Notes under the pieces: generated by a model | What the model saw: only the letters and a program-made list of their open reading frames with translations | Database searches by the model: none | What the model was told of the DNA's origin: nothing | NCBI GenBank assembly: GCA_965232875.1 | Contig: OZ247431.1 | Location: 1,110,273 to 1,174,272 of the forward strand | Length of the DNA: 64,000 nt | Reading direction: 5' to 3' | Source of the DNA: Dehalococcoidia bacterium | Lineage (GTDB): Bacteria > Chloroflexota > Dehalococcoidia > Bin125 | In this document: one piece after another, positions 2,064-63,102 of the stretch | Layout: each line of letters begins with the position of its first letter | Numbering within the stretch: position 1 is the stretch's first letter | Translations under genes and position numbers: made by a program

Positions 2064-2183
2064 AGTGTCCCCTACTTGCGTCCCGATCCGTGGGCTGAGG
2101 ATACGTCAGCATTGCGCCGGAACTTGATCAGCGAGGCGAGATCATCCGATAACGTGACGCAGAGCAATACCAGCGTCCTCGCC

Positions 2184-2346
2184 TCCGTCATTCCTGCGAA
2201 GGCAGGAATCACGAAACACCCATGTCGTCAACGAGACTGGGCAATGACGTACCTCATCCTCAGCAAGCGGAGATCGGGGTACAGCGAGACGCTTTGCCGC
2301 TATCGATGAACCGAGGATCGTGATTCCTGCCTTCGCAGGAAAGACG
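2184..2346. repeat. MITE-like composite: two inverted copies of a ~29-bp hairpin unit (CCGTCATTCCTGCGAAGGCAGGAATCACG at 2184-2212; CGTGATTCCTGCCTTCGCAGGAAAGACG at 2319-2346) flanking ~100 bp
   Basis: Each unit is a perfect 8-bp stem hairpin, and the two units are reverse complements of each other. Same family recurs at 52752-52780 and 54584-54612. Located in the divergent intergenic region between the GMC gene and the CoA-transferase gene. Confidence 0.6.
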
Positions 2347-2382
2347 AAACAACGAGAAATCGGGGAAGTGTTGAGGACTTGA

Positions 2383-4867: not shown

Positions 4868-5082
4868 GATTCAGTCCCCGCTGTACGGAGACCCTTGCAA
4901 AACTTCCGAATCCCCTCTCCCCCCCTTGCGGGGGAGATGTCACGGAGTGACAGAGGGGGGGTCGGCTGATGATGACCAGGTGAGGCTCCCGAACAGCGCC
5001 CTCCCTGCCTTCGGCATCTCCCCCGCAAAGGGGGGAGAAGGGGAGTTATTCCAAGGTCTCCGTAGAGCGGGAACTGGAACTG
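4868..5082. repeat. Copy A of a ~200-bp long imperfect palindromic repeat element (nested hairpins)
   Basis: Inner arms CTCCCCCCCTTGCGGGGGAGATG / CATCTCCCCCGCAAAGGGGGGAGAAG. Central palindrome GTCACGGAGTGAC. Outer arms CAGTCCCCGCTGTACGGAGACC / GGTCTCCGTAGAGCGGGAACTG. Near-identical copies at 12352-12535 and 62893-63075. Sits immediately 3' of the CoA-transferase stop. Confidence 0.75.
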
Positions 5083-5169
5083 AAGCCCTTGAAGAACGAT
5101 GGCGCTGATATCGTAGCGACAGTTGACGAGACTGAATTCGCTTCGTCCCGACTAAATCTGGAGTGATGT

Positions 5170-8100: not shown

Positions 8101-8592
8101 GTGCTCAGTCTGATGGATTGCCCCGGCATGATGGTCGGCCCCGATGTCGAAGCGACGGCGCTGGTGCGTCACTGTGCACGGATGTTCAACACCGGGGCCA
8201 ACTTGAGTGTGCCGCTGTTCGGCGTGGTCGTGCGCAAGGCGTATGGACTCGGAGTCCAGGCGATGTGCGGGGCCAGCGCGCTGGTCGGATTCTTCACTGT
8301 CGCCTGGCCGACGGCCGAGTTCGCCGGCATGAACATCGAAGGTTCAGTGAAGCTTGGATATCGCAAAGAACTCATCGCGATCGAGGACCCCGAGGAGCGG
8401 ATCGAGACCTACGAGCACATGGTGGCGCGAGCGTACGACAACGCCAAAGCAGTCAACTCAGCCGCCGGCGGTGGTCTCGATGATGTGATCGATCCCGCAG
8501 ACACGCGCGAGTGGATTGCCAACGGCCTCAAGCGCCTCCCGCCAACGCCAGAGCGCACTGGCAAGAAGCGTCCCTACATCGATACGTGGTAA
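5170..8592 (+). CDS. Single-chain multidomain biotin-dependent acyl-CoA carboxylase (BC - BCCP - CT)
   Basis: 1140 aa. N-terminal biotin carboxylase (LIANRGEIAIRVARAASDLGI..., ATP-grasp). Biotinyl domain with the EAMKMEH biotinylation motif near residue 560. C-terminal ~520-aa carboxyltransferase domain (propionyl-CoA carboxylase beta-like, GGGRPGDD). RBS GGAGTGA precedes the start. Confidence 0.9.
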   Translation: MPPSGSVSPVSKLLIANRGEIAIRVARAASDLGIATVSVYSKDDARSLHVHAADEAVELDALGVQAYLDIDGLIAAAQSTGCDAVHPGYGFLSESAEFARRCRDASITFVGPTAHLLDLFGDKVRARQAAREAGVPVIEGSDQAVTLSEAVDFFESLGEDAAVMLKAVAGGGGRGSRAVTDINEMEAAWERCESEARMSFGSGALYIEQLIPRARHIEVQVIGDLHGGVGHLWERECSVQRRFQKIVEIAPAPHLETSTREAIVEAAVRIARDVGYSSLGTFEFLLDASDGSNDAFFFLEANARLQVEHTVTEQVTGVDLVQSQLRAAQGASISDLGLDDPSWLRPRGFAIQTRVNMETLTPDGSVRPASGTLKAYEAPSGPGVRTDGFGYVGYQTSTSFDSLLAKVIAHAPAPRFEDALTRSLRALSEFRIEGVATNIPFLTNVLEHADLVEGRVHTRWVDEQMAELATFNGAQRVRYLQAEAPTADSGFAGARVDSRDPLALFQHDQEVKQQQSLQVVEEEAPDLTGPEGSIGLPAPIQGTIVSIMVEEGQEVRKGQDLVAMEAMKMEHVISADRDGIVKALGCSIGDVIREGFPLVFILEAEVSVEAIGDDDLIDPDFIRPDLQENYDRHAYTLDENRPIAVSKRRGRGYRMPRENIEQLVDPGSFQEYWPLIVARQHQRNTDEQLRENTPADGLLAGTATINGDLFDDERDARAIVVHYDYTVLAGTQGGRNHYKQDRMFEMARRFNFPIVFYTEGGGGRPGDDRTGPGVAFDTYTFTQFSKLSGQVPLVGVTNGRCFAGNTALLACCDVIIATEGSTVAMGGPAMIEGGGLGIYTPEEVGPMSFQVPNGVVDILCKDEEEATDIAKKYLSYFQGPIKEWTAPDQRRLRHIVPENRLRLYDMKEIIHTIADEGSVLEIREKFGIGIITAFIRVEGHAIGVIANNPHHLAGAIDSDGSDKGARFLQLCDAFDIPVLSLMDCPGMMVGPDVEATALVRHCARMFNTGANLSVPLFGVVVRKAYGLGVQAMCGASALVGFFTVAWPTAEFAGMNIEGSVKLGYRKELIAIEDPEERIETYEHMVARAYDNAKAVNSAAGGGLDDVIDPADTREWIANGLKRLPPTPERTGKKRPYIDTW
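8541..8592. repeat. Left copy of a 52-bp imperfect direct repeat (last 17 codons plus stop of the carboxylase gene)
   Basis: GCCAACGCCAGAGCGCACTGGCAAGAAGCGTCCCTACATCGATACGTGGTAA. Matches 9654-9705 at 48/52 positions. Confidence 0.8.
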
Positions 8593-8596
8593 TCGC

Positions 8597-9649
8597 TACA
8601 TGCACTGGCTGGCATTTCTGGCGCTATTGACCACGATCATCTTCGGGGCTTGCGCCGACGATGAGCCGCCCGATGATTCGACCCCTCGTCCTGAGCGTCA
8701 AGAGACTGATTCCCCCAGTACCCCACCTACGATCGATGAGATCGAAGGTGAGACGCTCGCCGACATCATGCGCATACTCTATCGGCGCCAGATGAGATCG
8801 CATCCCACAGTCTGTGCGTATGTGCTGGGTACGGGCGTCTACGGTGTGAGCCAAGCGCTTGACCGAGACACGCACCCAGCGCAGATAGTGGCTGACCTTG
8901 TGGAGGGTTGGACAGGAAGCATCTGGATCGGCGAGTTTGGGGACTATGAACTCTCCTGGACGGAGCTGCAGCGAATTGTGCTGGTCGCTCCAGACGGGGT
9001 CTCCCTGCCGCATCAGGGCTTCTATGACACAATCGGCGACGCCCTGGAATTCAAGTACATCCGAGGTAAGTTTGAGCTGACTATGATCGGACGTCTCTTC
9101 GATTGTAGCGATCCGAACGGCGCCTATCCCGATGGAATCGGCGAACTCGCTCAGCGTCACAGCGAAGATGAGGGGTTGTTCGTCTATGACGTTGAGGAAG
9201 TGGTCGACATTGAACACGGTACAAATAGTCACGTTGATCAGAGGTACTCGATCCTGGAGGTCGCCGATCACAATGATTGGCCTCCTGCGGTTGATCTGCC
9301 TGTGTTGGCCGACCTGTTGACGGAAACGGCGCGCGAGCATTGGTCATCGGAATTCGTCTGTGTGAGTGTGACGAGGCGGCCGGTCGATTCGGGCGAAGCC
9401 GGGACTGGTTTGACGGCTGACTCGCCGCTGCCCGAAGCATTCCTGCGAATTTTCGACGAGCTCCGATTCGACCCTGAGCAGGCGACACTGCTGCTGATCG
9501 GGACACGCAACATTGTCCTCGCCTGGGTCGAGTCGTATAACGACGCCGGCAGAGTGACTGCAGCCGAGTTCGTCAAGAGCGAAGACGGCAATTGGTCCGA
9601 ACGGACTTGGGTGTCCATGTATGGATGTGGCCCACTGGGCAGTGAGTAG
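8597..9649 (+). CDS. Hypothetical lipoprotein (MHWLAFLALLTTIIFGAC lipobox), 350 aa
   Basis: ORF with signal peptide plus Cys. Start placed at the ATG just after the carboxylase stop; the track's upstream start overlaps the carboxylase frame. Appears somewhat less GC-rich by eye. Flanked by the 52-bp direct repeats. Confidence 0.6.
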   Translation, partial: YMHWLAFLALLTTIIFGACADDEPPDDSTPRPERQETDSPSTPPTIDEIEGETLADIMRILYRRQMRSHPTVCAYVLGTGVYGVSQALDRDTHPAQIVADLVEGWTGSIWIGEFGDYELSWTELQRIVLVAPDGVSLPHQGFYDTIGDALEFKYIRGKFELTMIGRLFDCSDPNGAYPDGIGELAQRHSEDEGLFVYDVEEVVDIEHGTNSHVDQRYSILEVADHNDWPPAVDLPVLADLLTETAREHWSSEFVCVSVTRRPVDSGEAGTGLTADSPLPEAFLRIFDELRFDPEQATLLLIGTRNIVLAWVESYNDAGRVTAAEFVKSEDGNWSERTWVSMYGCGPLGSE

Positions 9650-9653
9650 CGTC

Positions 9654-9705
9654 GCCAACGCCGGGGCGCACCGGCAAGAAGCGTCCCTACATCGATACGT
9701 GGTAA
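9654..9705. repeat. Right copy of the 52-bp direct repeat; encodes ...PTPGRTGKKRPYIDTW* in frame, i.e. a second copy of the carboxylase C-terminus
   Basis: GCCAACGCCGGGGCGCACCGGCAAGAAGCGTCCCTACATCGATACGTGGTAA. Confidence 0.8.
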
Positions 9706-12351: not shown

Positions 12352-12535
12352 TTTGGTTGATTCCCAGTCCCCGCTTCACGGAGGCCTCTGCAAAACTCCC
12401 CTTCTCCCCCCTTGCGGGGGAGATGTCACGGAGTGACAGAGGGGGGGCGGCTGATGACGACCAGATAGGGCTCCTGAACAGCGGACCCCCCTCTGCCTTC
12501 GGCATCTCCCCCGCAAGGGGGGAGAAGGGATTCGA
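12352..12535. repeat. Copy B of the ~200-bp palindromic repeat element (lacks the right outer arm)
   Basis: CAGTCCCCGCTTCACGGAGGCC...CCTTGCGGGGGAGATGTCACGGAGTGACAGAGGGGGGG...GGCATCTCCCCCGCAAGGGGGGAGAAGG. Confidence 0.75.
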
Positions 12536-21327: not shown

Positions 21328-21473
21328 GCCGACCACCGTCATACCCGCGCTTGCCGCGGGTATCTCGCCGCGTTCTCTACGACCGTTGAGCACACGTCGA
21401 GATTGCCGCGCCGGAGCGCGGCAATGACGGATCCTGCTGGCCTTGTCTCAACAGCCGCTTGTTTATCGCTGCG

Positions 21474-23616: not shown

Positions 23617-24067
23617 TGCCACGGCTGCAATACCAGGCAAGTACGGAACGAGAAGAACAGGAGCGACCGGAGCGTCGGGAGCACGCTCGGAAATCGTTGA
23701 GCGGATCGTGTGCAGGGGACTACCTAACAGTCACTACAGTGAAGGAGAAGCCCCGCCGCCAAACCACTGGATCACGGTTGCGCGTGGCCCTGGGCCATGA
23801 CGATCGTGGACCACGTCCCCCCGTCTGCGCGCACGATCCGCTCAACGATTTCCGAGCGCTTTCACACCAGAGGCTGGTGTGTGCATCCCACTTTACGTCG
23901 AATTGGCGTCACCGACGCCGAAAACTCCGAACTTTCCGTAACCAATCCAATGCTCCGACGTTGACGCCACTGACTGGCTCAATCGAGCACGTCCCTTGCC
24001 TACGCGGCGTCCCCTTCATTGGCGACTCCGAGTCGCGCGGAACTTCCCGACGCCGAACGGCGTTTCG

Positions 24068-40906: not shown

Positions 40907-40935
40907 ACCTTCGCGGTACCCCCGTCTTGCAGATC

Positions 40936-41297
40936 CGTCATACCCGCGCTTGACGCGGGTATCTCGTAGCGTCCAGCAAAGCGGTTGTTCAACCGACTCC
41001 GCTCCCCCCTTTGGGAGACCTACCCATAATCCTGTTTCCGGTCGTTCTGAGCTTCTGTAGGGGCGACCCTTGTGGTCGCCCGCGTTGGAGATCCCAAGGC
41101 TGACCAGATAGGAGCTACACAGCGGGTGACCAAAGGGGTCGCCCCTACGAGGTGGCCGAAAGCACGCCGGGCGAATCAGGCGCAGGTCTCCACTGGGAAA
41201 GATCCCACAGAGCATCAACTCCGTGATTGTCGCACTCAGCGCAGACATCCGTGCTCGAATCAGCGAAGTACCCGCGACAGGCGCGGGTATGACGAAC
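40936..41297. repeat. ~360-bp MITE-like element bounded by inverted palindromic terminal units (CCGTCATACCCGCGCTTGACGCGGGTATCTCG ... CGAAGTACCCGCGACAGGCGCGGGTATGACGA) with an internal long inverted repeat
   Basis: The terminal units are reverse-complementary members of the CCGTCAT hairpin family. Internal GTAGGGGCGACCC (41055-41067) pairs with GGGTCGCCCCTAC (41139-41151). Local hairpin GGGCGACC-CTTGT-GGTCGCCC. Confidence 0.5.
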
Positions 41298-41302
41298 TTG
41301 GC

Positions 41303-49554: not shown

Positions 49555-49665
49555 GTCCCCATTCCGTCATTGCCGCGCTCCAACGCGGCAATCTCGCTGC
49601 ATCCGGTACCGACGTTTGTGCTCGAATCAGCGAGATACCCGCGACAAGCGCGGGTATGACGGAGT
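49555..49665. repeat. Two adjacent CCGTCAT-type hairpin units (CCGTCATTGCCGCGCTCCAACGCGGCAATCTCG and CGAGATACCCGCGACAAGCGCGGGTATGACGG) 3' of the PEPM-family gene
   Basis: Shares the GTGCTCGAATCAGCGA-TACCCGCGACA-GCGCGGGTATGACG block with 41242-41297. Confidence 0.6.
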
Positions 49666-49717
49666 TGCCCGCGCGCACTTGTCTCTTTCCGAAGGTCTCT
49701 TTCACGCCTAGTGCGGA

Positions 49718-51229: not shown

Positions 51230-52141
51230 CTAACCGGCCGTGATCAGTTCGCGGCCGGTCACACGCTCGAAGGCCGTGCGATAGCGCCCGCTGATGTTTT
51301 CGACCACGTCATCGGGCAGCGGCGGGCCGGGCGGTTCTTTGTCCCAGCCCGTCGACGTGAGCCAGTCACGCAGCGGCTGCTTGTCGTACGACGGCTGCGA
51401 CTGACCCGGCTTGTAAATCTCGGCATCCCAGAATCGGGAAGAATCGGGCGTCAGCGCCTCGTCGATCAGGATCACCTCGTCCTCGCCCTGCTCGTTCTGG
51501 ACGACGCCAAACTCGAACTTGGTGTCGGCGAGGAAGAATCCCGCCTCGTGCGCCCGTGACAGGCCGTAGGTGTAGAGCGCCATCGAACGGACCTTGACCG
51601 TGTTGGCGACGTCTTCGCCCACGATTCCCACTGCCTGCTCGTAGGTGATGTTTTCGTCGTGTTCGCCAATCTCGGCCTTGGTCGAGGGCGTGAAGATCGG
51701 ATTGGGCAGCGGCTCCGACTCCGTCAGGCCGGCCGGCAGCGGAATTCCGCAGACAGTGGAACTGCGCTGATACTCGGCCCAGCCCGAACCGGCCAGGTAG
51801 CCGCGCACGATCGCCTCAAGGTTGACCGGCTGCGCCTTCTTGACCAGCATCGAGCGACCGATATATTCCGGTCCAAGCGCAACCGGAATGTCGGGGTTGT
51901 CGGTCGAGTCAATCACGCGGATCATGTGGTTGGGCACCACAGATTCCGTCGCGTCAAACCAGAATGCCGACATCTGCGTCAACACGCAGCCCTTGTCGGG
52001 AATCGCCGTCGGCAGGACCACATCAAACGCCGAGACGCGATCGGTCGTGACCAGCAACAGCCGGTCGTTGAGGTCATAGATGTCCCGAACCTTGCCCGAG
52101 TGCTTGGGAAGGTCAAGGTTGGATTCGATCATCACACTCAT
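51230..52141 (-). CDS. purC: SAICAR synthetase
   Basis: Start MSVMIESN with GAGGAG RBS. PurC family similarity throughout. The track ORF 51230..53038 is a 5' over-extension through a Pro/Arg-rich frame. Confidence 0.9.
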   Translation of the reverse strand: MSVMIESNLDLPKHSGKVRDIYDLNDRLLLVTTDRVSAFDVVLPTAIPDKGCVLTQMSAFWFDATESVVPNHMIRVIDSTDNPDIPVALGPEYIGRSMLVKKAQPVNLEAIVRGYLAGSGWAEYQRSSTVCGIPLPAGLTESEPLPNPIFTPSTKAEIGEHDENITYEQAVGIVGEDVANTVKVRSMALYTYGLSRAHEAGFFLADTKFEFGVVQNEQGEDEVILIDEALTPDSSRFWDAEIYKPGQSQPSYDKQPLRDWLTSTGWDKEPPGPPLPDDVVENISGRYRTAFERVTGRELITAG

Positions 52142-52191
52142 CGCAAACTCCTCTGCGTTGAGCATATAGGTGAGACTGGTTCGAGCACTGT

Positions 52192-53850
52192 TCAATCTGG
52201 TCTCCAGCGGGCGTCTTGGCCTCTGGGTTTGGCGACGATCTGGAGGCGCCCGGTTGACCTGGTGGGTGTGGGGACTTGTTGGAGGAGTTCGTGCATGTAG
52301 CGGTCGGCGTCGAGGAGGTCGTCGTTCCGTTTGCGGGGTTTGGGATCGGGATCGTCGCCGGTTTGCCAGACGTACTCTTGCATGCGCTTGGGGAAACAGG
52401 TGAGGTTCTCGGTGTAGAACGATGCGGGCGGGTCGGCGGCGAGCGGTTCGTGGACGAGGTTGACGCCGTAGAGCACGGAGCCGGGGTTGCCGGCGGCGGG
52501 GACGACGTGGATGCCCTGTCGTCGTTGGTGGTCGATCCAGGCGGATTGGGAGCGGTCGGCGGCCCAGCGGATGGGACCGAACTTGCGCTGGCATTGACGC
52601 TGCCATTGTTCGAGTCGCTGGATGACGCCGGGGCCTCGGTCTTCGAACTCGGCGAGTCGGATCAGGGTGAAAGGGTGTTGGGAGGAGGTGGGAGGTGTGC
52701 TGCGGCTGGGGGACGGCTGGCGGGTGGTGTCGTTGATGGGCTTGGGCGGTTCGTGATTCCTGCCTGCGCAGGAATGACGGAGGGGGGAGACCCCCCCCCC
52801 TCTGCCTGCGGCATCTCCCCCCGCAAGGGGGGGAGAGAGGAATGGGGGGTGGGTGAGGCCTGCGATGATGCCGGCGGTGTGGTGGGCGGTGTCGGTTTGG
52901 CCGCCGAAGTCGAGGCCGCCGATGATGTGGGTGAACGGTGGGAGGGGGCCTGACCAGCAGTGGCGGTCGGGGTCGAAGTCGGGGTAGACGCGGCCCATGA
53001 GGGCGTTCCAGCGGCCGTCGATGAAGCGGTCGCGCCATTGTGGGGGCAGGAGGGCGTGGTTGAGCTGGGCGTAGTTGTCGGGCAGGTGGGGGTTGTCGGC
53101 GATTTTGGCGGGGATGAAGGCGACCTGTCCGCTGGCTTCGTGGAGGGCGTCTTCGGGTAGTTCACGGTGCAGGAACCAGCGCTGGAACCAGCCGGGCCAG
53201 GGGTTGGAGGCGGCGACGAACCAGCGCTGCGGCTGGGCCGGGTGGCGCAGGCGGGTGAGCAGCATCAGGGCGGCGTCCTCGTCGACCTGACCGGCTTCGT
53301 CGATCAGGACGGCGCCGTACTGCTGGGAGCCGAGGCCCTGCCAGTCGGAGAGGTGGCGGAAGTTGACGGTTGAGTGTTGGTCGCGGGGCCAGCCGGGTAG
53401 CCGCAGCTGGACGAGCGAGGTCGGGGCCTGCTGGCGTCGCTGGATCAGTTCGGGCGGGCAGACCTGGAAGAACTCTTTCATGGTGGTGGAGGAGAGGTCG
53501 GAGAGGTGGTGTCGGGCGACGAGGATGTTGTCGCCGGGGTGCATGAGCGCGGCGTCGATGGCGAGTTCGGCGATGGCGCGGGTTTTGCCCCCGCCCATGG
53601 CGCCGCCGTAACCGAGCAGGGTGAGGCCGGGATCCGGAGCATCGATCAGCGCTTCGTACAGCTCGTGCTGCCGCTCCGTCGGTCGAAAACTCCGACCTGC
53701 GCGCAAATCCGCCAGCCGCCTCAACGTTCGTCTCCGCATAGTCACTGCTCGCATCGCATCAGATCCTCTCTCGCCACGGCGAACGCCCGTCGCTTCGTTC
53801 AGATCAGCAACAGTACATATGAGCGGATACCCTTCGCCACTCCTCCTCAC
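52192..53850 (-). CDS. Phage terminase large subunit-like protein (ATPase plus RNase-H-like nuclease) with an in-frame repeat-element insertion
   Basis: Walker A GYGGAMGGGKT. Walker B AVLIDEAGQV. Nuclease motifs HIIGGLDFGG and RKRNDDLLDADRYMHE. Residues ~335-395 (PFLSPPLAGGDAAGRGGGVSPLRHSCAGRNHEPPKPINDTTRQPSPSRS) are encoded by repeat DNA at 52752-52850. Confidence 0.75.
   Translation of the reverse strand: MRRSGEGYPLICTVADLNEATGVRRGERGSDAMRAVTMRRRTLRRLADLRAGRSFRPTERQHELYEALIDAPDPGLTLLGYGGAMGGGKTRAIAELAIDAALMHPGDNILVARHHLSDLSSTTMKEFFQVCPPELIQRRQQAPTSLVQLRLPGWPRDQHSTVNFRHLSDWQGLGSQQYGAVLIDEAGQVDEDAALMLLTRLRHPAQPQRWFVAASNPWPGWFQRWFLHRELPEDALHEASGQVAFIPAKIADNPHLPDNYAQLNHALLPPQWRDRFIDGRWNALMGRVYPDFDPDRHCWSGPLPPFTHIIGGLDFGGQTDTAHHTAGIIAGLTHPPFLSPPLAGGDAAGRGGGVSPLRHSCAGRNHEPPKPINDTTRQPSPSRSTPPTSSQHPFTLIRLAEFEDRGPGVIQRLEQWQRQCQRKFGPIRWAADRSQSAWIDHQRRQGIHVVPAAGNPGSVLYGVNLVHEPLAADPPASFYTENLTCFPKRMQEYVWQTGDDPDPKPRKRNDDLLDADRYMHELLQQVPTPTRSTGRLQIVAKPRGQDARWRPD
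52752..52850. repeat. Chimeric repeat inside the terminase ORF: CGTGATTCCTGCCTGCGCAGGAATGACGG hairpin unit fused to the right half of the ~200-bp palindromic element (GCCTGCGGCATCTCCCCCCGCAAGGGGGGGAGAG); includes C10 and G7 homopolymers
   Basis: Direct comparison with 4868-5082 and 2184-2346. Confidence 0.7.
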
Positions 53851-53948
53851 CCCCCATCATGCGGACCTCCGTCAACTCAGCTACTGAAAAAGAATATGTG
53901 TTCGCATACAGTCAACCTCAGAGACGCGACCACCGAACGGATCAACCC

Positions 53949-54398
53949 ATGACCATCCCGCAAACCGCCCCTCAACCCATCCATCAGGCCTCCCCGCAGG
54001 CCCCACCTCAGGCCTCCCCGCAGGCCATACCTCAGGCCTCCCCGCAGGCCTCCCCGCAGGCCATCCATCAGCGCTATTGGCAGATCGCCAACAACCCCGA
54101 GGAACGTGGCTACGTCCAGGTCCGCGCTCTCGATTCCCTCGCCCGGCTCCTCGACCTCTTCCCCCGTCCCGCCCACCCCGGCTTCTTCGCCTGCGACCCC
54201 GAACCCCCGCCTCCCGCGATCCCGAACGGCCCCTACGCGGTCGCCAGCATGAGCGACGAAGACCTCGATGCCCTGATCGACAGAGAAGAAGCCGCCGCCA
54301 ACACCCAGGCCGACAAAGAAGCGGAAGCCAACACTGAATCCGAGCCCGATGACGAAGACGAGGAAGGATCCGGCCGGGATGAGGACGAACCTCCCTAA
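53949..54398 (+). CDS. Hypothetical protein with (A/I)(S/P)PQA tandem repeats and an acidic C-terminal tail
   Basis: ORF divergent from the terminase gene. Start chosen at MTIPQTAPQ; the track gives 53859. The repeat is encoded by ~24-bp tandem units at 53975-54069. C-terminus EPDDEDEEGSGRDEDEPP. Coding status uncertain. Confidence 0.4.
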   Translation: MTIPQTAPQPIHQASPQAPPQASPQAIPQASPQASPQAIHQRYWQIANNPEERGYVQVRALDSLARLLDLFPRPAHPGFFACDPEPPPPAIPNGPYAVASMSDEDLDALIDREEAAANTQADKEAEANTESEPDDEDEEGSGRDEDEPP

Positions 54399-54583
54399 TA
54401 CCCCAGCGGCGCCCGTTTTTTTCGTGCGAGCATTCCCAATCCCCGACCAGCGCGGGGACCGGCCCCGCACACCCGCAACCAGCCCCCAAACCCAGACAGG
54501 GGCCGGATCCCCCTGCAAGAGAGGGGAAGCCATTGTGGCTGGGCTTGGGTGGGACGCCTGACAAGTGTCGCTGCGGCTGTCGG

Positions 54584-54612
54584 TTGGCTGGTTCGTGATT
54601 CCTGCCTGCGCA
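54584..54612. repeat. Hairpin repeat unit CGTGATTCCTGCCTGCGCAGGAATGACGG (same as 52752-52780) 3' of purB
   Basis: Exact 29-bp match to the copy inside the terminase gene. Confidence 0.7.
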
Positions 54613-54653
54613 GGAATGACGGAGTGGGGGGATCGCGGGTGGTAGGGCTCTTG

Positions 54654-62892: not shown

Positions 62893-63075
62893 ACTCCTCA
62901 TCCCGAGTCCCCTCTCCCCCCTAACGGGGGGAGATGTCACGGAGTGACAGAGGGGGGGTCGGCTGATGATGACCAGATCGGGCTCCCGAACAGCGGACCC
63001 CCCCTCTGCCTTCGGCATCTCCCCCGCAAGGGGGGAGAAGGAGAGTTCTTCAAGGGTCTCCGCTGAGCGGGGACT
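62893..63075. repeat. Copy C of the ~200-bp palindromic repeat element, immediately 3' of tpiA
   Basis: CTCTCCCCCCTAACGGGGGGAGATGTCACGGAGTGACAGAGGGGGGGTCGGCTGATGATGACCAG...GGCATCTCCCCCGCAAGGGGGGAGAAGG...GGGTCTCCGCTGAGCGGGGACTGG. Confidence 0.75.
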
Positions 63076-63102
63076 GGGAGATTCGATTCTTGGGAAACCA
63101 TC

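What the first reader, a model, noticed from the sequence alone, without database searches (positions are those of the whole stretch)
52192..53850. Lone phage terminase large-subunit gene inside the purine biosynthesis cluster, kept in frame despite a ~100-bp repeat-element insertion
Between purC and purB is a 552-aa ORF with terminase-type Walker A (GGGKT), Walker B (VLIDEAGQV) and RNase-H-like nuclease motifs (GLDFGG; DDLLDADRY). No portal, capsid or small-subunit genes accompany it. About 60 residues in the nuclease domain are encoded by repeat DNA (hairpin unit plus half of the ~200-bp palindromic element), yet the frame stays open for 552 codons. That frame includes a C10 tract and G7 tracts that are slippage-prone. 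It is either a prophage remnant under unexpected frame preservation or a domesticated terminase-like ATPase/nuclease.
Basis: partly seen in the sequence, partly recalled or inferred. Interest (0 to 1): 0.55.

Follow-up and report, generated by a model that had tools for sequence, protein, structure and literature searches.

The report
Orphan two-gene terminase cassette, repeat-invaded loop
The gene is not a decaying prophage scrap. It is one copy of a conserved two-gene "terminase-only" cassette that Dehalococcoidia genomes (many, by their isolate names, from sponge metagenomes) keep intact in one to five copies, far from any other phage gene, and one surface loop of the protein repeatedly absorbs small genomic repeats without breaking the reading frame.

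Summary
An intact terminase large-subunit (TerL) ORF lies between purB and purC, and a 63-residue stretch of it is encoded by repeat DNA. There are two corrections. The likely start is the ATG at 53754, giving 520 aa. The gene is also not alone: a small divergent ORF (53949-54398, +) is its conserved partner.

The pair forms a discrete 2.0-2.4 kb cassette. I found it 77 times in about 45 Dehalococcoidia species genomes, at 1-5 copies each, with no recurrent phage structural gene within 6 kb (spot checks reached about 10 kb). Of 77 copies (the window's plus 76 of those loci), 74 are intact. dN/dS is 0.08-0.46, and the ATPase and nuclease motifs are conserved.

The copies occupy a few conserved intergenic sites, and purB-purC is occupied in three genomes. 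Yet copies within one genome can be 95-99% identical across different sites, so cassettes are exchanged or overwritten.

The repeat insertion sits in a hairpin loop of the nuclease domain that the model leaves disordered. The loop is 11 aa in 41 of 71 loci and carries 24-159 aa in-frame inserts in 28 loci, most of them made of repeat units.

The best reading is a maintained, functional terminase module. What it acts on is not known. Capsid hijacking, self-mobility and defence all remain open.

The parts
52192..53754 (-). TerL-type gene, probable CDS of 520 aa (the open frame continues up to a GTG at 53850)
   Evidence: ORF. Pfam Terminase_3 and PHROG_2. The start matches P0001, and an RBS-like GAGAGGA sits 9 nt upstream. 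The AlphaFold model has pLDDT 79.6, and its best Foldseek match is D6E TerL at E 1.8e-18.
53581..53613 (-). Walker A / P-loop GYGGAMGGGKT
   Evidence: Read from the sequence. The residues are invariant in the 17-sequence alignment. The Walker A pattern was found in 75 of 77 loci.
53284..53310 (-). Walker B VLIDEAGQV (D184, E185)
   Evidence: Invariant D184, E185, A186 and G187. The pattern was found in 75 of 77 loci.
52900..52920 (-). Nuclease motif 1, GGLDFGG (first catalytic Asp, D314)
   Evidence: Invariant. It aligns with SCDYGTQ of D6E TerL.
52666..52854 (-). 63-residue insertion in the hairpin loop between two strands of the nuclease domain (residues 333-395 of the 552-aa frame)
   Evidence: The loop is 11 aa in 41 of 71 loci and 63 aa here. 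In the model it has pLDDT 30-45 and lies between strands 293-301 and 363-372. All three sense frames are free of stops.
52699..52790 (.). Repeat unit inside the loop: an arm plus the hairpin GTGATTCCTGCCTGCGCAGGAATGACG
   Evidence: 92% identical to 54584-54632, with further similarity back to 54535. Related copies lie at 2182-2222 and 2309-2357.
52791..52840 (.). G/C-run palindromic unit inside the loop, including the C10 tract at 52791-52800 and the G7 at 52828-52834
   Evidence: 81% identical to 4998-5040, 12486-12528 and 62999-63041. The same unit type fills the loop in many homologues. P0001 differs here by exactly one codon.
52555..52557 (-). Codon of D432 in ADRSQSAW (second nuclease acidic residue)
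   Evidence: Invariant. It aligns with VDPSAASF of D6E TerL.
52297..52323 (-). Nuclease motif DDLLDADRY (third acidic cluster)
   Evidence: Invariant. It aligns with NDHQLDADRY of D6E TerL.
53755..53948 (.). Intergenic region between the two divergent genes, presumed to hold their promoters
   Evidence: This follows from the anatomy. No sigma-70 consensus match was found, so the promoter role is inferred only.
53949..54398 (+). Small partner gene, 149 aa from M31 of the ORF that begins at 53859. It has a conserved core RYWQIANNPEERGYVQVRALDSLARLLDLFPR, a long helix, and an acidic tail ending in the invariant DEDEP, usually DEDEPP
   Evidence: Homologues were detected upstream of TerL at 58 of 77 loci, co-directional at 49 of them, where the ORF usually overlaps the TerL start, and divergent in 9 including this one. 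Family alignment. The C-rich sense strand matches TerL's. A profile search of 1.84 billion proteins found only 6 hits.
53945..54095 (+). 12-nt tandem repeat (PQAS-type) in the 5' part of the small gene
   Evidence: family D1. Close relatives P0121-P0123 have 12-16 fewer residues here.
54405..54427 (+). Hairpin plus T-run directly after the small gene's stop codon
   Evidence: Terminator-like site. The T-run in the same position is conserved in all nine divergent-type cassettes.
54535..54632 (.). Repeat unit at the purB-side edge of the cassette. The 90%-identical stretch shared with L005 ends at about 54631
   Evidence: The L005 cassette matches window 52199-54631 at 90% and its flanks are unrelated. 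Repeat families D2, D7 and D11.

Best explanation
The ORF is a functional copy of a lineage-restricted two-gene 'terminase cassette'. The cassette holds a small helical protein with an invariant acidic tail and a complete TerL-type ATPase plus RNase-H-fold nuclease. It is a discrete unit of 2.0-2.4 kb.

Shown:
- It occurs in 1-5 copies per genome in about 45 Dehalococcoidia species.
- It has no recurrent phage structural neighbours.
- It is kept intact under purifying selection.
- It sits in a small number of conserved intergenic sites. purB-purC is one of them, and there TerL reads into purC with no terminator-like site between them.
- Cassettes are copied or overwritten between sites.
- The 63-residue insert is REP/MITE-type repeat DNA in a loop of the nuclease domain that the model leaves disordered. 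This loop holds all the repeat-derived insertions seen. The insert has no stop in any sense frame, so selection on insert length alone keeps the frame open.

Inferred:
- The two proteins act as a terminase holoenzyme. The small protein gives DNA or TerL recognition, and TerL cuts and translocates DNA.
- No capsid genes lie nearby, so TerL would work in trans on procapsids supplied by a phage or by genes elsewhere in the genome. That would make it a satellite-like or GTA-like packaging-initiation module.
- Transfer of flanking DNA followed by homologous recombination would then explain why sites are conserved while their cassettes are swapped.
For: TerL identity.

Conserved catalytic motifs.

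Family size and copy number.

Unit boundaries equal the two genes:
- Five OY820591.1 copies share only about 1.87 kb at 95-96% identity.
- L007 and L008 share 2064 nt.
- The window and L005 share 52199-54631.

Partner gene at 58 of 77 loci.

No phage neighbours.

Purifying selection:
- dN/dS is 0.08-0.46 overall and 0.10-0.16 between four of the OY820591.1 paralogues.
- 74 of 77 copies are intact.

Conserved sites: with PurB and PurC 89-92% identical in L002 and L004.

Exchange between sites:
- Same-genome pairs at different sites are 98.9% and 95.3% identical.
- Site A holds three different cassette lineages.

Loop hot spot.

Phage-like gene order: the closest viral contig (36% identity) has a recognised TerS directly upstream of its TerL.
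Against: - The functional steps are not shown. Nothing links the cassette to capsids, and the rest of these genomes could not be searched for portal or capsid genes.
- Homology of the small protein to TerS could not be demonstrated (hhalign probability 2.6%, hmmsearch E about 1, no PDB, Pfam or PHROG terminase hit).
- The small gene is inverted relative to TerL in 9 loci, including this one. That is unusual for a translationally coupled TerS-TerL pair.
- Gene conversion alone could explain the similarity of copies within a genome.
- TerL evolves faster than its neighbour (55-96% identity against 78-99% for DUF885). That also fits a conflict-type role such as defence or a selfish element.
Confidence: 0.55

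Rival explanations
1. The cassette is an autonomous mobile element. The TerL-like protein, an RNase-H-fold nuclease fused to an ATPase, acts as its transposase or homing enzyme, the small protein is an accessory factor, and the element moves between a limited set of repeat-rich landing sites.
For: - The duplicated unit is exactly the two genes and has sharp edges.
- One genome holds five copies.
- Copies at different sites of one genome are 95-99% identical.
- 90%-identical cassettes sit in unrelated contexts in the window and in L005.
- One site can hold cassettes of different lineages.
- REP and G-unit repeats are 5-10 times enriched at cassette edges.
Against: - No terminal inverted repeats, target-site duplications or att-like direct repeats were found.
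- No leader or end sequence is conserved across clades.
- Sites are conserved across species rather than scattered.
- Four of the OY820591.1 paralogues differ by dS 0.12-0.16 with dN/dS 0.10-0.16. So each copy has been under selection since they diverged, or they diverged in other genomes.
- No terminase nuclease is known to carry out strand transfer (general knowledge).
Confidence: 0.2
2. The cassette is an anti-phage defence or toxin-antitoxin-like module. The ATPase-nuclease is the effector, or a decoy that competes for phage procapsids or cuts phage concatemers. The small acidic-tailed protein is its regulator or inhibitor.
For: - It is a two-gene operon with overlapping stop and start, and the small gene comes first.
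- The family is restricted to one lineage.
- TerL evolves faster than the neighbouring housekeeping gene.
- It is multi-copy.
- Sponge symbionts are known to be rich in defence genes (general knowledge).
Against: - Neither protein hits PADLOC.
- The neighbours are metabolic genes, not defence islands.
- The full set of packaging-motor motifs is retained, which a simple nuclease effector would not need.
Confidence: 0.15
3. The gene is the last surviving gene of a degraded prophage, and its open frame is a matter of chance or of recent decay.
For: - The composition differs from the flanks: GC 0.66-0.70 against about 0.62, and strong strand skew.
- The gene is of phage origin.
Against: - The same two-gene unit is conserved in about 45 species, with 74 of 77 copies intact and dN/dS well below 1.
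- No integrase, portal, capsid or tail gene recurs within 6 kb of the copies, and none turned up in spot checks out to about 10 kb.
- Genomes syntenic at purB-purC hold the cassette only.
- None of the cassettes lies on an IMG/VR viral contig.
Confidence: 0.05
4. The apparent intact frame through the homopolymer tracts is an assembly artefact.
For: The C10 and G6-G7 tracts are error-prone in some sequencing chemistries (general knowledge).
Against: - The frame is open.
- An independent 98%-identical protein (P0001) differs at the tract by exactly one codon.
- 28 other loci from different assemblies carry in-frame inserts in the same loop.
Confidence: 0.03

Closest known systems
Phage terminase large subunits (Pfam Terminase_3 / PBSX-like; solved example: phage D6E TerL, PDB 5OE8/5OEA)
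   Same: - It has the same two-domain ATPase plus RNase-H-fold nuclease architecture.
- Walker A, Walker B and the three acidic nuclease motifs all align.
- The Foldseek match has E 1.8e-18, and the Pfam score is above the gathering cut-off.
   Different: - It shares only 25-29% identity with the ATPase half of any deposited phage TerL, and 36% with the best IMG/VR contig.
- It scores below the NCBIfam PBSX cut-off.
- No portal, capsid or tail genes lie nearby.
- It is multi-copy in cellular chromosomes at conserved sites.
Rickettsia palindromic elements (RPEs): small palindromic repeats inserted in frame into protein-coding genes (general knowledge, Ogata et al. 2000)
   Same: - Short palindromic genomic repeats lie inside an ORF and are translated.
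- They sit in a surface-exposed, structurally tolerant region.
- They contain few or no stops, and the host protein stays functional.
   Different: - The organism and the repeat families are different.
- Here at least ten apparently independent insertions, some followed by tandem build-up, hit one and the same loop of one protein family.
- The other clear copies in this window appear to be intergenic (rough check).
Gene transfer agents and other domesticated phage modules (for example the RcGTA terminase)
   Same: A phage packaging enzyme is kept under purifying selection in cellular genomes across many species, without a replicating phage.
   Different: GTA terminases sit at the head of a structural gene cluster. 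Here only the terminase pair is present at each locus, and in several copies. Whether structural genes exist elsewhere in the genome was not testable.
Phage satellites that redirect packaging (SaPI/PICI with their own TerS) (general knowledge)
   Same: A chromosomal element carries packaging-specificity genes but no capsid genes, so it depends on capsids supplied in trans. This is only the proposed way of working.
   Different: The cassette has no integrase, replication genes, att sites or repressor. It carries TerL itself, is only about 2 kb long, and has no inducible-island anatomy.
Insertion sequences that target REP/BIME clusters (IS110/IS1111-type, IS1397) (general knowledge)
   Same: It is a compact multi-copy unit found in repeat-rich intergenic DNA, with near-identical copies within a genome.
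   Different: It has no known transposase family, no terminal repeats and no target duplications. Its sites are conserved between species.

Membership tests
Terminase large subunit (TerL) | N-terminal ASCE ATPase with Walker A and Walker B (catalytic Glu) | tested here: met
   GGAMGGGKT and VLIDEAG are invariant in the alignments. The patterns were found in 75 of 77 loci.
Terminase large subunit (TerL) | C-terminal RNase-H-fold nuclease with three acidic catalytic residues | tested here: met
   D314, D432 and D514/D516 align with the corresponding motifs of D6E TerL and are invariant.
Terminase large subunit (TerL) | Two-domain fold matching solved TerL structures | tested here: met
   AlphaFold model with pLDDT 79.6. 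Foldseek gives D6E at E 1.8e-18, then HK97, Sf6 and T4 gp17. TM-scores are low (0.35-0.44) because the domain orientation differs and the loop is disordered.
Terminase large subunit (TerL) | Curated family score thresholds | tested here: inconclusive
   Pfam Terminase_3 scores 38.3 bits against a cut-off of 23.2, which is met. NCBIfam TIGR01547 (PBSX equivalog) scores 37.7 against 105, which is not met.
Terminase large subunit (TerL) | Encoded within a head-morphogenesis module (portal, capsid, and so on) | tested here: not met
   The neighbours are pur genes, CoA-transferases, DUF885, ABC and luciferase-like genes. No structural family recurs in the flanks.
Terminase small subunit (for the partner ORF) | Detectable homology to a TerS family | tested here: not met
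   No Pfam, PHROG-terminase, NCBIfam or PDB hit. hhalign probability against the TerS of L078 is 2.6%. hmmsearch gives E about 1.
Terminase small subunit (for the partner ORF) | Position immediately upstream of TerL, overlapping its start | tested here: inconclusive
   Met where the ORF is co-directional (49 of the 58 loci with a detected partner; 14-nt overlap in L053). Not met in this window, where the gene is divergent.
Prophage or prophage remnant | Other phage genes, an integrase or att repeats at the locus or in syntenic relatives | tested here: not met
   The cassette edges coincide with the two genes.
Insertion sequence / transposon | Terminal inverted repeats and target-site duplication | tested here: not met
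   None found at cassette edges. Ends are not conserved across clades.
Insertion sequence / transposon | Several near-identical copies at different sites of one genome | tested here: met
   Five copies in OY820591.1, four of them 95-96% identical in nucleotides and the fifth 88-90%. L007 and L008 are 98.9% identical in protein.
RPE-like in-frame repeat insertion | Dispersed palindromic repeat translated inside an otherwise conserved ORF, in a surface loop | tested here: met
   Repeat matches. Loop mapping. Stop-free frames.
Known anti-phage defence systems | Match to a PADLOC model | tested here: not met
   No hit for either protein at E up to 0.1.
Gene transfer agent | Head-tail structural cluster encoded in the same genome | not testable with these tools
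   Only 20 kb around each copy could be read.

The most novel reading that the evidence does not exclude
A terminase holoenzyme has become an element in its own right. It would be a roughly 2 kb, two-gene cassette that carries its own recognition site. It would either launch headful packaging of the adjacent chromosome into capsids supplied by others, making it a minimal capsid-hijacking or transduction-driving module, or use its ATPase-nuclease to copy itself into established landing sites. Either way it would be a kind of selfish or semi-domesticated genetic element that has not been described.
Probability: 0.3. Interest if true: 0.85.

Novelty: new variant of a known kind. Interest (0 to 1): 0.62.

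Why it matters
Terminase genes are used routinely as markers of phages and prophages. Here a whole clade of uncultivated symbionts keeps terminase-only cassettes, so such hits can mislead prophage and virus-host calls in sponge metagenomes.

If the cassette really packages DNA or moves itself, it would be the smallest known packaging-based element. It would also be a new route for gene flow in symbionts that cannot be grown.

The loop hot spot is a natural experiment. It shows where a terminase nuclease tolerates up to about 150 extra residues. It also gives a second, independent example of repeats colonising a coding sequence in frame, as RPEs do in Rickettsia.

Tried and rejected
- **Exact-protein look-ups** for P0001, P0057 and the window's PurC found nothing on record. 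The source contig and neighbouring alleles could therefore not be fetched.
- **Empty-site test.** The one metagenome scan with PurC returned only relatives of 61% identity or less. It shows that purB-purC adjacency with gaps of 42-150 nt is common in distant relatives. It gives no empty allele in a close relative.
- **Invertible-switch idea** for the small gene. No flanking inverted repeats were found. L032 and L045 differ by replacement of the whole 5' module, not by a clean inversion. Rejected.
- **TerS homology of the small protein.** The only lead is a short motif, RALDSLxRLLDLF against RALELLGRHLGMF. It is not significant.
- **Other negative searches.** Rfam gave only a sub-threshold chance hit. 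No sigma-70-like promoter was found. PADLOC gave nothing.
- **Conserved cassette termini across clades.** Not found.
- **Literature.** Searches for orphan, domesticated or terminase-like elements, and for terminases in Chloroflexi, SAR202 or sponges, found no description of such cassettes.
- **Size of the largest site group.** The group of 39 loci in the first synteny clustering is inflated by paralogous CoA-transferase genes. Only the 20 loci that share the DUF885 neighbour are counted as one secure site.
Full report
**What is at the coordinates**

The minus strand carries an open frame from 53850 (GTG) to 52192, 552 codons long. It matches Pfam Terminase_3 above the curated threshold and PHROG_2, terminase large subunit. 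The first ATG, at 53754, has GAGAGGA 9 nt upstream and coincides with the start of a 98%-identical database protein, P0001. The real product is therefore probably 520 aa.

They are invariant in homologues. A profile of the family aligns its three acidic nuclease motifs with those of phage D6E TerL.

An AlphaFold model built on 84 homologues has mean pLDDT 79.6 and shows the two TerL domains. Its best structural matches are D6E, HK97, Sf6 and T4 terminases.

The neighbours are purD, a cupin gene and purB upstream, and purC, purS, hisB, a ferritin-like gene, a PEP-mutase-family gene and a CoA-transferase downstream. None is of phage origin.

**The gene is not alone**

A plus-strand ORF lies head-to-head with TerL at 53859-54398, probably starting at M31 (53949). 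It is C-rich on its sense strand, as TerL is on its own. A hairpin with a T-run follows its stop codon directly, and that feature is conserved in every cassette of this arrangement.

Its product has three parts: a conserved core (RYWxIANNPEERGYVQVRALDSLxRLLDLFPR), a long helix, and an acidic tail ending in the invariant DEDEP, usually DEDEPP. The model shows three helices at pLDDT 67.

I detected homologues upstream of TerL at 58 of the 77 copies examined.
- At 49 of them the ORF is co-directional, and in most of these it overlaps the TerL start. The overlap is 14 nt in L053. This is the position a small terminase subunit has in phages.
- In nine loci, including this window, the gene is inverted.

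The closest viral contig, L078 (36% TerL identity), has a recognised small subunit in that position. I could not show that the partner protein is homologous to any TerS. A profile search of 1.84 billion proteins found only six relatives.

**A family of cassettes**

The TerL query finds hundreds of proteins at 50-98% identity. Where a source names them, they are Chloroflexota MAGs, and several hits share one chromosome.

A scan of one genome per species returned 77 loci in about 45 genomes. All are labelled Dehalococcoidia or Chloroflexota, apart from one 2.5 kb contig binned elsewhere. Many isolate names look like sponge-metagenome bins. That is my reading of the names and was not verified.

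Copy number is 1-5 per genome. Three comparisons show that the repeated unit is just the two genes:
- The five copies in OY820591.1 share only about 1.87 kb, from about 90 nt upstream of the small gene to about 12 nt past the TerL stop. Four of them are 95-96% identical over it and the fifth is 88-90%.
- L007 and L008, from one genome, share 2064 nt.
- The window shares 52199-54631 at 90% with L005, whose flanks are unrelated.

Clustering of all flanking ORFs shows no recurrent phage gene. The flanks hold CoA-transferases, DUF885, ABC-transporter and luciferase-like genes. Neither protein matches a PADLOC model. None of the cassettes lies on an IMG/VR viral contig.

**The cassette is maintained, not decaying**

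74 of 77 copies have a single ORF spanning both domains. Pairwise dN/dS is 0.08-0.46. Among four of the paralogues inside OY820591.1 it is 0.10-0.16, at dS 0.12-0.16.

This, together with the absence of any other phage gene in syntenic relatives, rules out the prophage-remnant reading.

**Conserved sites, exchanged contents**

Flank comparison sorts the copies into a few syntenic sites.

The purB-purC site is occupied in the window, L002 and L004.
- PurB and PurC there are 89-92% identical, while TerL is 77-82% identical over conserved columns.
- The small gene is divergent in the window and L004 but co-directional in L002.
- L004 has an extra 688-aa gene next to purB.

At least 20 species share a site next to a DUF885 gene. 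There DUF885 is 78-99% identical while TerL is 55-96% identical, with r = 0.42 between the two.

Against simple vertical descent:
- Copies at different sites of one genome are the closest relatives of each other. L007 and L008 are 98.9% identical, and L003 and L004 are 95.3%.
- One site can hold cassettes of three different lineages.

So cassettes are copied into, or overwrite, established sites. I found no terminal inverted repeats, target duplications or att-like repeats and no end sequence conserved across clades. REP hairpins and G/C-run units are 5-10 times enriched at cassette borders. Those borders are, however, also simply intergenic.

In distant relatives purB and purC are often 42-150 nt apart. 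An empty allele in a close relative could not be obtained.

**The repeat insertion**

The insertion lies between the strands ...TAGIIAGL and LIRLAEFE... of the nuclease domain. In that position the family has an 11-residue loop (consensus TDRRAPCGPNV) in 41 of 71 scorable loci, and in-frame inserts of 24-159 residues in 28 loci.

Most of these inserts are translated genomic repeats:
- G/C-run palindromic units, read as PLAGGDAAGRGG or RGEMSRSDRGG depending on frame;
- LSPRERAGVRA-type units;
- REP hairpins.

They are sometimes stacked in tandem. L027 and L033 are exceptions, with an insert that does not look like repeat DNA. By content and phylogeny there were at least ten independent insertion events.

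The window's insert is 63 residues (52666-52854). Its DNA matches the repeat copy at the cassette's own edge (52699-52790 versus 54535-54632) and part of the larger palindromic elements elsewhere in the window (52795-52837). In the model it is disordered, with pLDDT 30-45.

All three sense frames of the insert lack stops. The frame therefore survives any insertion whose length is a multiple of three, and selection on a functional protein explains the rest. P0001 differs at the long homopolymer by exactly one codon. The homopolymers could in principle restore or break the frame by slippage. No evidence for phase variation was available.

Whether the loop is a preferred target or merely the only tolerant place cannot be decided here.

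**How it probably works**

What is shown is a complete, conserved packaging-type ATPase-nuclease with a dedicated small partner. It is kept in several copies without capsid genes nearby and is moved between fixed sites.

I infer that the pair acts as a terminase holoenzyme on DNA, most likely together with capsids supplied in trans. That mode would spread the cassette along with its flanks by transduction and homologous recombination. It would account for conserved sites with swapped contents and for the absence of transposon ends. I put this at roughly 0.3 within an overall 0.55 for 'maintained, functional terminase module'.

Self-mobility through the TerL nuclease (0.2) and a defence or toxin-like role (0.15) fit parts of the evidence and are not excluded.

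At the purB-purC site TerL ends 50 nt before purC, with no terminator-like site between them. purC may therefore be read through from the cassette.

**Comparison with known systems, and novelty**

The protein is a TerL by sequence motifs, fold and Pfam score. It is only 25-36% identical to any phage TerL found, it falls below the NCBIfam PBSX threshold, and it lacks the genomic context that defines a working phage terminase.

The in-frame repeats resemble Rickettsia palindromic elements (general knowledge).

Four literature searches found no description of terminase-only multi-copy cassettes.

I rate it a new variant of known kinds, namely domesticated phage genes and in-frame repeat colonisation. 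There is a real chance that it is a new kind of element.

Noticed in passing
window 53945-54095: A 12-nt tandem repeat encodes PQAS-type repeats in the 5' part of the small partner gene. Close relatives (P0121-P0123) have 12-16 fewer residues here, so the array length varies between strains.
   Followed up: partly
window 4872-5084, 12357-12528, 62903-63079: Three copies of a palindromic element of about 170-210 bp, built from G/C-run units (GGGGGAGATGTCACGGAGTGACAGAGGGGGG and similar). Copies are in both orientations. Half of one such element is what sits in the TerL loop.
   Followed up: partly
window 2182-2357, 21336-21431, 40929-41300, 49563-49668, 54584-54632: Several sub-types of a REP-like hairpin that begins with CCGTCAT (stems TTCCTGC, ACCCGCG, TTGCCGCG), often in pairs. 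A rough composition check suggests they are intergenic.
   Followed up: partly
window 52000-54400: The cassette has its own composition: GC 0.66-0.70 against about 0.62 in the flanks, GC3 0.81, and a strong excess of C over G on the sense strand of both genes (skew about 0.3). This persists although the cassette family is old in this lineage. It is unexplained.
   Followed up: no
window 23684-23713 and 23829-23858: A 30-nt inverted repeat, 97% complementary, with 115 nt between the arms.
   Followed up: no
window 8540-8592 and 9653-9705: A 53-nt direct repeat at 94% identity that ends in TGGTAA, 1113 nt apart. It looks like the shared 3' ends of two tandem paralogous genes.
   Followed up: no
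L004 7229-9295: In OZ241962.1 an extra 688-aa ORF sits between purB and the cassette. It has an N-terminal hydrophobic segment and a weak HExxH-protease-like hit (NCBIfam flagellinolysin, E 2e-5, far below the cut-off). It is absent from the window and from L002.
   Followed up: partly
L027 and L033, TerL loop: These two cassettes carry a 62-residue loop insert that does not look like repeat DNA. It is rich in D, P and H (...DPSNHDPDDPDDQDDPHQPT), so the same loop also accepts other kinds of insert.
   Followed up: no
L046 (VXNE01000402.1): A 2.5 kb contig carrying a cassette is binned as Gammaproteobacteria. Its TerL groups with a Chloroflexi-bin contig (L047) on a branch of the Dehalococcoidia cassette tree, so the contig is probably mis-binned.
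   Followed up: no
L056 and L044, about 9440-9530: A G/C-run unit inserted just upstream of the cassette leader is flanked on both sides by CCAACCCTCA. This may be a target-site duplication made by that repeat family.
   Followed up: no
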